In this document: positions 3,701 to 7,689 of the stretch, piece by piece | Position numbering within the stretch: the stretch's first letter is position 1 | Layout: every line of letters starts with the position of its first letter | Assembly: GCF_009914755.1 (NCBI RefSeq) | Contig: NC_060936.1 | Direction: 5' to 3' (one strand) | Source of the DNA: the human T2T-CHM13v2.0 reference genome, Homo sapiens | Length of the DNA: 64,000 nt | Program-made: the position numbers and the translations under genes | Notes under the pieces: model-generated | The model's input: the letters and a program-made list of their open reading frames with translations, nothing else | Databases searched by the model: none | What the model was told of the DNA's origin: nothing

Positions 3701-6443
3701 AGGCCCCATGCAGGTTGGGTCACAGATGAGTATGGGGGTCGGGCCCTCATTCATCTGCAGGGGCCAGGCCCAGGCGCCACCACCATGGCACAGCAAGGCC
3801 ACACATGCACCCGCCAGCCAGGGTGCCCTGGGCGGGAGGGGCCGTTACAACCAATCAGTGCAACCCAAAGCCCGGGGACGGGGCCTGCACTCCATAAACT
3901 CCCCAAAAACCATAAATTCCCTAAAAACCGTCAAAGGGAATTCTGTGCTGTGTGCATTACGCCCTCTTAAGGCTGGAAACAGATACGCATTGTGTCAGAC
4001 AACAAGCATGGCTGAACGGTGAATCCAGAGTGGGCCTGGGCAGCTGCCTGCATCTGCGTCAGAGTCAGGGGCTGTGGGTGCCCACTTCCTGCCTGTGCCC
4101 CCCAGGGCAGGGCTCTGCCTCTGGCCTCTGTGTCCCCATCTTTGGTAATGGCCCAGCCCATGGGAGGAGCAGGAGAGCGGCCGCCTCTCCTAGGCAGCTC
4201 CAGAAATCAGCATCAGCCAGGGGGTGGCTGCCGTGGGTTGGGGCTCCCTGGAGCTCCTGGCAGCCCCCTCCCGCCTCCTCCCTCCTCCCGGCAGCCCCTC
4301 CCCCTCCCCAGTGGCCTTCTGGAAGGTTCACCCTGCTGCTGCTGCAGCACCCGCCCGCCACAGCCTCTGTTGCCCTGGAGACAGCGGTCTCCGTGGCGAC
4401 AGCAGAGGGAGGACCAGGCGGCGGGTGGGCGTGGAGGGGGGCAGGTAGCAGGTTCCCAGGATCAGACGCCCCCCTGCCTGCGTGGGATCCACAGGCTCTG
4501 TAGGTACTGGGGGCAGGGGGCAGGGAGGGGGACACCTGGAGCGGGGAGTCTGGGCCCCCACCCCAGCGGCCATCCTACAGCAGGCATCCCCCTACCCACT
4601 GTGGGTGGGAGTGGGTCAGGGTAGAGGCCTGGCGGGAGAGGAGGGGTGGGGAGGGGCAGCCACATTTGCCCTGAGCTGCTGGCTGCAGTGGGGGGGTTTG
4701 CCCCAGGACTGTGCTCCAGGCCTGGTTAACCCCTACTCCCCTTAGCTAACAAGCCCACCTTGCCACCACCACCACCCCATTAGCCTGGGTCAACATTTCC
4801 AAGCCCTAGCCAGGAATCAGCCGCCCCCTCCCAGATGGACCTGAGCTGCCTGGTGAGCTGCCTGCCGCCTCTTCCCTGCAGGCTCAGGCCTCCCCACAGC
4901 CGCGCCTCCACCCACACTGGGAGCACAGGACAGGTCAGGGCTGGGCGAGGGCGCCTCGTGGGCTCAGGAGGCCCCCTGGGGCAGGTGGCCACTTCTACCT
5001 GTGTCCACCCGAAGGCTGGTGGCTCCCAAACCTGCAAGGCTTGTTCTGTTGGGGTGTCCCTGGCAAACTAGGAAGTGGTTCCCACCCTCTCACTCCAGCC
5101 CCCAAGACGGCCCCTCCCAGGATGCCTAGCCTGAGATTTGGGGCACAGCCCCCTGAGCACAAACTCGTGTTAGGTAGGAGGCACCCACCAGCCCTGCCCC
5201 ACAGACCCACCACCCCCCAAGATTCGATGCCATTCTATGCTCAAATTCCAGTGCCTCTGGGGCCACAGGCGACAGTGCCTGTTTATCATGGGCGGGGCTG
5301 CCTGTCCCGGGCTGGTGCCGGGGCCCTGGTTCTATGAGTTGAAGCAGGCTGGCCGCTCACACCTGCAACTAAACCACCTGCTTCCAAACATTGGGCAACA
5401 TTCCACAGCCACTGGGAGTGCTGCCTGCCAGGCCCGGCTCCACTTTCCTGAAATGCATGTGGCCTCGTGGCCAGGCTGCCCAGCTCCCTGGGGACCAGAG
5501 TGGGGGGTGCCCCAAACCGCCACCGTGAACCCCACAGAGTAAATGGGCCACTCAGTGCAGCTACCAGCCATGACCTCAGCTTATAGACGGGAAGGCTGGG
5601 GGGTGAGTTGTCCTCCCAAGGGGTCTCAGCACCTGCTGGCCCAACCCAGGCAGCAGCTGGCCTGGGTGGGAAAGGCACCTGCCTGTGTGGACCCTTCCCT
5701 GGTGAGGGGGCAGGGGGTCATCATCCAATATCATAGATGATGTGAGGAAACTCCAGAGTGCTTCCTGGAGGAGGTGACAGGCTATTGTAACCATGAGGCA
5801 CAGTGGCCCTGTTGAGCTGTGATCTTAACAAAGGACTAAAAAGTGCAGAATGTGCTGATGGGCATCTCCAGCACCTACAGCGGTGACTGATCATGGGACA
5901 CCCTCAGTAAACCCTGCAGGTGCAAGGTAGTGTGGGACCGGATGCTCGGGGCCAAAGATCCCCACACCCTGGAGGTCAGGGCGGAAGTGGGAGGCCAGCT
6001 TGTCAAGGCCAAGGCTGTCACCCCCAAGGCCCCTCCAGAGAAGCTGCCCACCCCAGTCATGAACGTCCACTTTGACGTCCTGTCGTGCCTATAGCTTTGG
6101 AGGGGCCCCCAGTTCTGTACACACTCTTGGCTTCCCCAAGGGGCTGAGGGGCTGGGCTGGGTCAGTAGGGTTTGGAAAGGGGGTAAAGGCACAGAGGGGG
6201 GCCCCGGGAAGGACTCAGTGCTTCCTGGAAGGGGGATCTCGGGGTGTGCAGATCCCATGTAGTGTCTTGTGAGGCCCCTCCTGGCCAGCACGGCCTGTTG
6301 CTGATGCCCCTGGGACTTCCAGGATGGTGGTGCCTCATTCCTCTGAGCACTGCCTGCTGGTGGGCAGGAGGGTTGGCCAGGACCACCCCATCACCAGCTC
6401 CTGCAGACCAGAACCTGGAGGCCCAGCAGGTGGCATAAATGAG

Positions 6444-6658
6444 TCACAAGCATTTTCTTTTTTCTTTTTCCTTTTTTTTTTTTTAGGATTTCTTTAAAAA
6501 GTTATGTTTTTTTCATTTATGCATTTTTTTAGGTTAAGCCACATGAAACTACTAGTATTTATTTTAAATCAGAAATGGTCAAAAATGGGCACTTTCATAT
6601 GATTTGGCCAATGAATACATGAGAGGTGGTAAATAACAGCGATTCACAAGCATTTTCT
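6444..6658 (-). mobile_element. Short orphan retroposed insertion (6459-6643) with poly(A) tail and 15-bp TSD
   Basis: TSD tcacaagcattttct at 6444-6458 and 6644-6658; T-tract 6459-6484; AT-rich body unlike the GC-rich flanks. Confidence 0.8.
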
Positions 6659-7689
6659 AAATGTCCAGAGAAAAAAAAAAGACAGGTTTGCAGGCAGGGC
6701 AGAGCCCCCAGCACATCACCCCTGGCTTGTACCTTTCTGGAGCCCGCCTCACCCCTGCTGTGGTTCCCTGGGCTGGCGAGTATCCACAGGGCAGAGCAGC
6801 AGCTTCATGGCAGCCTGCAAGTGGGCACAGGCGCCATTTGGCGGTTGAAGAAACTGAAGCTAGGGGTGGAGGTAGCCCCCACAGATGGCACCCAGGCCTG
6901 CCATCCCCAGGTCCCCACGATGGCACCCAGGTCCCCACAGATGGCATCCAGGCCCCCCTGTCCCCAGGGCCCCTCCAGGGTAGCAGAGATGACTGGGGCA
7001 TGGGGCCAGGGCTTGATTTATGCCCAGGTTAAAGGGCTGCCCTCATTCCTGCTCCTACTCAGCTCCGGTGTGGGTAGCCTTGCACCCACCCCAGTGGGCC
7101 CTTCAGAGCAGAGCTGTCCCCTGCGCCAGGTGCTGGTGTGAACATTTTCCACGTCCTGGCTCACGTCCTCATCACCAGCCTGCCAAGGACTCTGAGGAAG
7201 GAGCCCAGAGGGGTGGACTGCCTTGCCCCAGGCACACAGCGGGGAGGTGGCTGAGTGGGATTTGAACCTAGGCAGCCTGGCTGGAACCTGGCTTTTGTTT
7301 CTGAGACAGGGTCTCGCTCTGTTGCAGACACAGTCTGCAACTCCTGTGCTCAAACGATCCTCCCGCCTCAGCCTCCCAAAGTGCTGGGATCTCAGGCATA
7401 AGCCACAGCACCGGCCAAGCCTGGGCTCTTATCTCCCCCATGAATGTACAGCATGGCCCAATTCCTTAAACTGGTGTCTGAGCCACAGCCTTTCTCAGCT
7501 GGGGTCCCAGACCTTGGATGCTAGACTTCCCTGTCACAAGTCAGCTGAGAGCCTGCATTTGACACTGGCCACATTTAAGAGCCTTTTGAAGGTTCCCTAG
7601 CATTTTGCGGTCTCAGGAGGCGTGGGGTGGGGCAGGGTTGCCATGAGTGGTTGTACAGGTCGTGCACGGCACAAGCTCACACCATCTAA

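What the first reader, a model, noticed from the sequence alone, without database searches (positions are those of the whole stretch)
6444..6658. Orphan 185-bp retroposed sequence with full TPRT hallmarks in MMP17 intron 1
Seen: perfect 15-bp direct repeats (tcacaagcattttct) bracket an AT-rich island. On the - strand it reads TT|AGAAAATGCTTGTGA - 159-nt body - poly(A) - AGAAAATGCTTGTGA, with AATAAA and CATAAA inside the body. Known: TSD, poly(A) and a TT/AAAA-like site are L1 target-primed reverse transcription signatures. I do not recognise the body as Alu, L1 or SVA. Inference: a severely 5'-truncated retrocopy of a cellular mRNA 3' end, or an orphan L1 3' transduction, that repeat annotation could miss. 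On the sense strand it also supplies a long polypyrimidine tract plus AG (ttttag, AG at 6485-6486), a potential cryptic acceptor.
Basis: partly seen in the sequence, partly recalled or inferred. Interest (0 to 1): 0.7.

Follow-up and report, generated by a model that had tools for sequence, protein, structure and literature searches.

The report
Orphan L1 transduction inside MMP17 intron
A 185-base piece in the first intron of MMP17 carries the marks of LINE-1 insertion and copies a short stretch of chromosome 4, likely carried over when a LINE-1 transcript ran past its own end; this is a known kind of event, here with an unexplained extra piece in its tail.

Summary
A perfect 15-bp duplication (6444-6458, 6644-6658) brackets a 185-bp minus-strand insert with an A-rich tail at an L1-endonuclease-type site. 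The "body" is composite. Its 5' 114 nt have one other match in the genome, chr4:24,351,960-24,352,073 (91%). That match ends 27 nt after an AATAAA, which is the first canonical poly(A) signal downstream of a same-strand primate L1 3' end lying 378 nt upstream. This is the layout of an orphan 3' transduction. Then come A7, 39 nt with no donor found, and the main tail. Against this source: that L1 is only 506 bp with no duplication of its own, and the chr12/chr4 differences cluster at the 5' end (9 in 42 nt, 1 in 72 nt), so the age is uncertain. The donor also lies sense within the long brain PPARGC1A transcription unit, a rival source. The extra 39 nt begin with an exact 10-nt inverted copy of the target flank (p about 0.002-0.05, post hoc). 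The cryptic acceptor is strong in sequence but not in the annotated exons shown, and would add a stop codon. Verdict: new member of a known kind; modest interest.

The parts
6444..6458 (.). Target-site duplication, copy beside the tail; its right end is the L1-EN-type nick position (TTCT/AA on + strand)
6459..6484 (-). Main poly(A) tail, interrupted (A13-GG-A5-G-A5); on + strand a long pyrimidine tract
6485..6523 (-). 39-nt segment between two A tracts; no donor found; holds CATAAA; 6513-6522 is an exact inverted copy of 6433-6442
6524..6530 (-). A7 run at the end of the chr4-derived piece, not templated by chr4 (likely remnant of a poly(A) tract)
6530..6642 (-). 114-nt copy of G000:C4:24351960-24352073 (91%), ending 27 nt after AATAAA
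6558..6563 (-). AATAAA poly(A) signal, shared with the chr4 donor; antisense to MMP17
   Evidence: insert position 81
6601..6643 (-). 5' end of the copy, holding 9 of the 10 internal differences from chr4
6644..6658 (.). Target-site duplication, copy at the truncated 5' end; extends to 18 nt with one mismatch, i.e. a possible 2-nt microhomology
6433..6442 (+). Flank 10-mer, one base from the duplication, whose inverted copy lies in the tail segment
6454..6486 (+). Candidate cryptic splice acceptor (pyrimidine tract + AG), not used by the annotated exons shown
   Evidence: annotation in the finding

Best explanation
The 185 bases are an insertion with LINE-1 hallmarks whose main part copies a short stretch of chromosome 4, likely carried as an orphan 3' transduction when a LINE-1 transcript ran past its own end. 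Shown: duplication, tail, endonuclease-type site, single chr4 donor, match ending 27 nt after AATAAA with a U-rich stretch left behind at the donor, and a same-strand L1 3' end 378 nt upstream. Inferred: that L1, then longer or driven from upstream, read through its weak signal for about 490 nt to the first AATAAA. The RNA was polyadenylated and ORF2p nicked MMP17 intron 1 and primed on the tail. Reverse transcription stopped after about 114 nt, before any L1 sequence. Inferred, weakly: the 39-nt extra arose during integration, partly by copying the target flank (about 45%), or is the flank of a lost intermediate copy (about 30%). It is most likely a neutral intronic fossil; any use of its acceptor would give a stop-containing exon.
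For: TSD unique in the window. Only 2 loci match the body genome-wide, 2 of 2 candidates scored; a 991-nt donor query finds no other offspring (16 of 16 scored). Homology stops where the A7 begins; AATAAA is 27 nt upstream; chr4 continues U-rich (53% T in 30 nt). That AATAAA is the only AATAAA/ATTAAA between the L1 tail and the site, and the L1's own end has only AGTAAA. In 39 unrelated loci (120.7 kb) none held an L1 3' end at 80% or more identity to it, so the closeness is unlikely by chance. Polarity chr4 to chr12: an old repeat runs across both donor junctions (profile hit L002:1318-1509, E 7e-29; right part 27 of 2000 shuffles). At 6 of 7 substitutions there, chr4 has the family base (read by eye, in an alignment fitted to chr4). 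Overall divergence of 8.8% equals that of the L1 from its nearest relatives, 90-92%.
Against: The chr4 L1 is only 506 bp, with no TSD in 20 kb, so it could not now be a source; a later deletion or an upstream promoter must be assumed. Differences cluster (permutation p 0.003). Only 1 difference in the other 72 nt plus the 15-nt TSD has p 0.004 at 8.5% divergence (segment chosen post hoc), which points to a younger event than this L1's family. The 39-nt segment has no donor and is not explained by one-step transduction. The donor lies sense within the long PPARGC1A brain transcription unit, an alternative RNA source. No orthologue could be examined.
Confidence: 0.5

Rival explanations
1. Same orphan transduction, but the source was a different full-length L1 that inserted near the chr4 site, never fixed and is absent from CHM13; the surviving fragment is a bystander and the event is young (ape-era).
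For: 1 difference in 87 nt (CI 0.03-6.2%) and a perfect TSD suggest youth. The fragment is truncated. Orphans from non-reference L1s are known (title of Solyom 2012 seen in a reference list).
Against: It needs the same-strand L1 end 378 nt upstream to be coincidence (0 of 39 control loci held such an end). It also needs a separate cause for the 5' cluster.
Confidence: 0.2
2. Retrocopy in trans of a host RNA: the long brain isoform of PPARGC1A (or another Pol II transcript) was cut at this intronic poly(A) site, and L1 proteins copied its last 114 nt.
For: A PPARGC1A coding exon lies on the same (minus) strand at C4:23.81 Mb, 542 kb downstream. The brain B1 promoter is about 587 kb upstream of exon 2 (PMC8548212 passage). 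So the donor is sense inside that unit.
Against: The isoform is described as brain-specific, whereas a fixed copy needs germline RNA. The L1 end next to the site becomes coincidence. No RNA evidence for use of this site was available.
Confidence: 0.2
3. Two-step transduction (concerns the 39 nt; compatible with the readings above): the chr4 piece first moved with an L1 to an intermediate site, and a second read-through added 39 nt of that site and a second tail.
For: Two A tracts with unique sequence between is the working rule for a 3' transduction (PMC12350158 methods passage). CATAAA lies 31 nt before the second tail.
Against: Neither a filled nor an empty intermediate was found. The 83-nt query finds only itself. 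A 28-nt pattern with up to 3 mismatches gives 1 other hit (chr18) against 2 control hits, and no L1 lies beside it in the part read.
Confidence: 0.3
4. DNA-level duplication, copying from chr12 to chr4, or chance similarity.
For: The near-identical 72 nt interrupt the old repeat at chr4.
Against: TSD, tail and EN site exist only at chr12. The match has E 1e-36. The repeat is continuous across both chr4 junctions.
Confidence: 0.04

Closest known systems
Orphan L1 3' transduction
   Same: Unique sequence from just downstream of an L1, ended by a downstream poly(A) signal, 5'-truncated so no L1 remains, with tail and TSD. Orphans were 10% of somatic L1 events in PMC10191854 (passage) and 48 germline cases in PMC12350158 (passage); ends fall 10-30 bp after the signal (PMC13009371 passage).
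   Different: No full-length source L1 survives. It has a second A tract plus 39 unexplained nt, clustered 5' divergence, and is in the reference rather than a listed polymorphism.
Processed pseudogene / retrocopy of a cellular RNA 3' end
   Same: L1 proteins acting in trans, poly(A) signal, tail, TSD, severe 5' truncation.
   Different: The donor is non-coding DNA overlapping a decayed repeat, not a known terminal exon (annotation of chr4 not available here); no exon junction.
L1 insertions with target-site fold-back or templated insertions
   Same: A short inverted copy of target-site DNA inside the insert (fold-back inversions 0.3% of events in PMC10191854 passage; templated insertions in PMC11702581 passage).
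   Different: Here the exact copy is only 10 nt and lies within the tail region, whereas the PMC10191854 cases were at the 5' side; support is borderline.

Membership tests
L1-mediated (TPRT) insertion | Target-site duplication of about 7-20 bp | tested here: met
   15/15 identical, unique in the window
L1-mediated (TPRT) insertion | 3' poly(A) tail next to the TSD | tested here: met
   26-nt A-rich tail 6459-6484
L1-mediated (TPRT) insertion | Endonuclease-type site (TTTT/AA or close variant; consensus recalled) | tested here: met
   TTCT/AA, one mismatch
L1-mediated (TPRT) insertion | Empty site with one TSD copy in an outgroup | not testable with these tools
   No primate genomes held
Orphan 3' transduction | Insert has no L1 sequence and maps to one other locus | tested here: met
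   2 loci only; 39 nt remain unmapped
Orphan 3' transduction | End lies 10-30 nt after a poly(A) signal at the donor | tested here: met
   27 nt after AATAAA; U-rich stretch downstream at chr4
Orphan 3' transduction | Donor lies just downstream of a same-strand L1 3' end | tested here: met
   378 nt
Orphan 3' transduction | That L1 is or was a full-length source element | tested here: inconclusive
   Now 506 bp without TSD; the nearest near-full-length L1 is 12 kb away on the opposite strand; past state unknown
Processed pseudogene of an annotated mRNA | Donor is the terminal exon of a gene | tested here: inconclusive
   Donor is 542 kb upstream of a PPARGC1A coding exon and 170 kb from a helicase HA2-domain exon; no annotation or poly(A) atlas for chr4 available
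Alu / L1 / SVA 3' end | Body belongs to a multi-copy retroelement family | tested here: not met
   Only 2 genomic matches, against 11,283 first-look candidates for a real L1 end; Dfam not available; no Rfam match at gathering score

The most novel reading that the evidence does not exclude
A fixed germline orphan transduction whose tail records polymerase switching onto the target flank during target-primed reverse transcription (an inverted target-site copy inside the poly(A) region), together with an error burst at the 5' end; or, alternatively, a retrocopy of a prematurely ended brain PPARGC1A RNA, implying germline use of that long promoter.
Probability: 0.25. Interest if true: 0.55.

Novelty: new member of a known kind. 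Interest (0 to 1): 0.3.

Why it matters
Old orphan transductions carry no L1 sequence, so catalogues anchored on annotated elements can miss them (the T2T survey started from annotated L1/Alu/SVA; 'orphan' has 0 occurrences in its text). This one names its donor and points to a possible former source L1 inside the PPARGC1A brain unit. If the tail segment is templated from the target, it is a natural record of template switching at the 3' end of TPRT. No effect on MMP17 is shown; at most it adds a latent acceptor whose use would give a stop-containing exon.

Tried and rejected
Rfam: no match at gathering score among 10 weak hits. Hairpin-templated origin of the 5' cluster: suggested by the fold but not above chance (635 of 3000 and 630 of 3000 simulations reach the observed values); rejected. 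The whole 39 nt as an 'A-or-inverted-site' mosaic: mixed, 42 to 670 of 2098 matched genomic 39-mers reach the score, and without the exact 10-mer 245 of 2098 do; only the 10-mer lead is kept. chr18 as intermediate or second donor: at control level. The 39 nt as decayed poly(A): 19 of 39 bases are not A; unlikely. The 39 nt as a spliced downstream chr4 exon: no GT at the chr4 junction and no chr4 pattern hit. The chr4 locus as itself a partnered transduction: no TSD or tail and no third copy. Near-full-length L1 at C4:24,364.4-24,370.7 kb as source: opposite strand, 13 AATAAA in between. The body as the plain end of the old repeat: the body alone does not score (574 and 167 of 2000 shuffles reach it). 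The three-way alignment fell in another register and was not used. The bacterial promoter scan is irrelevant. The RNA-style model of the 39 nt could not be run on this genome.

Full report
1. Observation. The window shows identical 15-mers at 6444-6458 and 6644-6658 around a 185-nt AT-rich insert. With up to 2 mismatches they are the only 2 matches in 64 kb; 0 of 100 shuffles reach 2. On the minus strand the insert ends in A13-GG-A5-G-A5, and the empty site reads TTCT/AA on the + strand, a one-mismatch variant of the L1 endonuclease site (consensus recalled). The repeat extends to 18 nt with one mismatch, which fits a 2-nt microhomology at the truncated end.

2. Donor. A genome search with the 159-nt body gave 2 of 2 candidates: itself and G000:C4:24351960-24352073, minus strand, 91%, E 1e-36, query 2-114. 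A 991-nt query from chr4 gave 16 of 16 candidates: itself, chr12 and 14 weak hits to a flanking old repeat. The tool warns that only best candidates are scored. Homology stops where an A7 run starts at chr12. AATAAA lies 27 nt upstream, and chr4 continues with a U-rich stretch, the layout of a poly(A) site.

3. Polarity. TSD and tail exist only at chr12. A profile built from 38 members of the flanking repeat (chr4 and one duplicate locus left out) aligns to L002:1318-1509, crossing the donor's left junction. Its last part aligns across the right junction, with 27 of 2000 shuffles reaching the score. The body alone does not score (574 and 167 of 2000). In the shared part chr4 has the family base at 6 of 7 substitutions (by eye; the alignment was fitted to chr4, so this leans that way). 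I take the repeat to be a hAT-type DNA transposon from recall; no call names it.

4. Source RNA. A 506-bp L1 3' end with a 32-nt tail lies on the same strand, 378 nt upstream of the copied stretch. Its 39 best-scored relatives (40 of 11,283 candidates scored, one being itself) are 90-92% identical. 'L1PA7-like' is my recall. Its own end has only AGTAAA, and the donor's AATAAA is the only AATAAA/ATTAAA between its tail and the site. None of 39 unrelated loci (120.7 kb) held an L1 end at 80% or more identity; one held a 71% match. These loci were picked through another repeat and may be L1-poor. Against this source, the fragment is truncated and has no TSD within 20 kb. The nearest near-full-length L1 is 12 kb away on the opposite strand. 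The donor also lies sense within the PPARGC1A brain unit: a PGC-1alpha coding exon is on the minus strand at C4:23.81 Mb, and B1 is about 587 kb upstream of exon 2 (PMC8548212, passages).

5. Age. There are 10 internal differences in 114 nt (8.8%, CI 4-16%), matching the L1's age. But 9 fall in the 5' 42 nt and 1 in the other 72 (permutation p 0.003 on 11 differences including the junction base). One difference in 72 nt plus the TSD has p 0.004 at 8.5% (post hoc). A hairpin-templated cause was tested and rejected. The date stays open; primate-era is inferred.

6. The 39 nt (6485-6523). No donor was found (1 of 1 candidate, itself; one chr18 hit at 3 mismatches against 2 control hits). Positions 6513-6522 are an exact inverted copy of 6433-6442, one base from the TSD. 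Such a 10-mer is shared by 2 of 553 window tiles and 9 of 565 other tiles. Segment plus tail against the empty site is reached by 5, 94, 21 and 5 of 2098 matched genomic 39-mers under four scorings. Without the 10-mer it is not significant (245 of 2098). All of this is post hoc: a lead for local templating, not proof. The alternative is a second transduction step through a lost copy (two-tail rule, PMC12350158 passage).

7. Splicing. The AG before 6487 ranks 2 of 820 YAG sites in window 1-21761 on a crude U-richness score, above all 9 real acceptors (ranks 14-181); a second AG before 6533 ranks 8. Nearby donors match only 6 of 9 consensus positions. Both candidate exons ending at 6628 carry a stop in the frame of exon 2. 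No exon shown in the supplied annotation uses either site (one row is hidden). The AATAAA is antisense to MMP17. No RNA data were available.

8. Mechanism. Shown: hallmarks, donor, poly(A)-site layout, adjacent L1 end. Inferred: read-through of about 490 nt, cleavage, TPRT into MMP17 intron 1, truncation before L1 sequence. That the insert is an L1-made copy of a chr4 RNA end: about 0.95. That the RNA was L1 read-through: about 0.7 (0.5 this L1, 0.2 a lost one). Host RNA: 0.2.

9. Literature. No held paper has MMP17 with retrotransposition and transduction (0 papers); none of the top 10 of 394 mentions MMP17. Other searches gave background. Seen as passages: PMC4862182, PMC8548212, PMC12016303, PMC13009371, PMC12350158, bioRxiv 2021.07.12.451456, PMC10191854, PMC11702581. 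Seen as abstract and outline: PMC5453318. Solyom 2012 and Szak 2003 were seen only as titles in a reference list and are not held. In the PMC12350158 spreadsheet, rows for chr12:131.80-131.99 Mb hold no entry at this site, but the file is cut before the transduction tables. The bioRxiv supplements of the T2T survey are closed. Either could list this locus. Most subscription papers are not searched.

10. Verdict. A real TPRT insertion and a new member of a known kind (orphan 3' transduction), with two unexplained oddities. Interest 0.3.

Noticed in passing
window 6877-6954: Three imperfect copies of a 22-nt unit (spacing 35 and 21), a small decayed tandem repeat in MMP17 intron 1.
   Followed up: no
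L002:1290-1690 (C4:24,351,750-24,352,150): The old repeat at the donor seems interrupted by about 70-90 nt that do not belong to the family; this stretch is the part nearly identical to chr12.
   Followed up: partly
L002:1993-2530 (C4:24,352,452-24,352,990): Truncated L1 with 8-9% divergence from its relatives but a pure 32-nt tail and no TSD.
   Followed up: partly
L003:1321-1360 (C4:24,346,320-24,346,360): On the minus strand, a MIR-like stretch (recalled) between an AG and a consensus donor: a possible 24-nt micro-exon in the PPARGC1A brain unit.
   Followed up: no
C4:24,364,400-24,370,666 (L004, L063): Near-full-length older L1 on the + strand, interrupted by an Alu-like insert, antisense to PPARGC1A.
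   Followed up: partly
window about 13283: Another AG in MMP17 with a 20-of-20 T tract, ranking above the 6487 site on the crude score.
   Followed up: no
L023 (C18:39,245,702-39,245,729): 26 of 29 match to the unexplained segment, itself preceded by AATAAA; at control level.
   Followed up: partly
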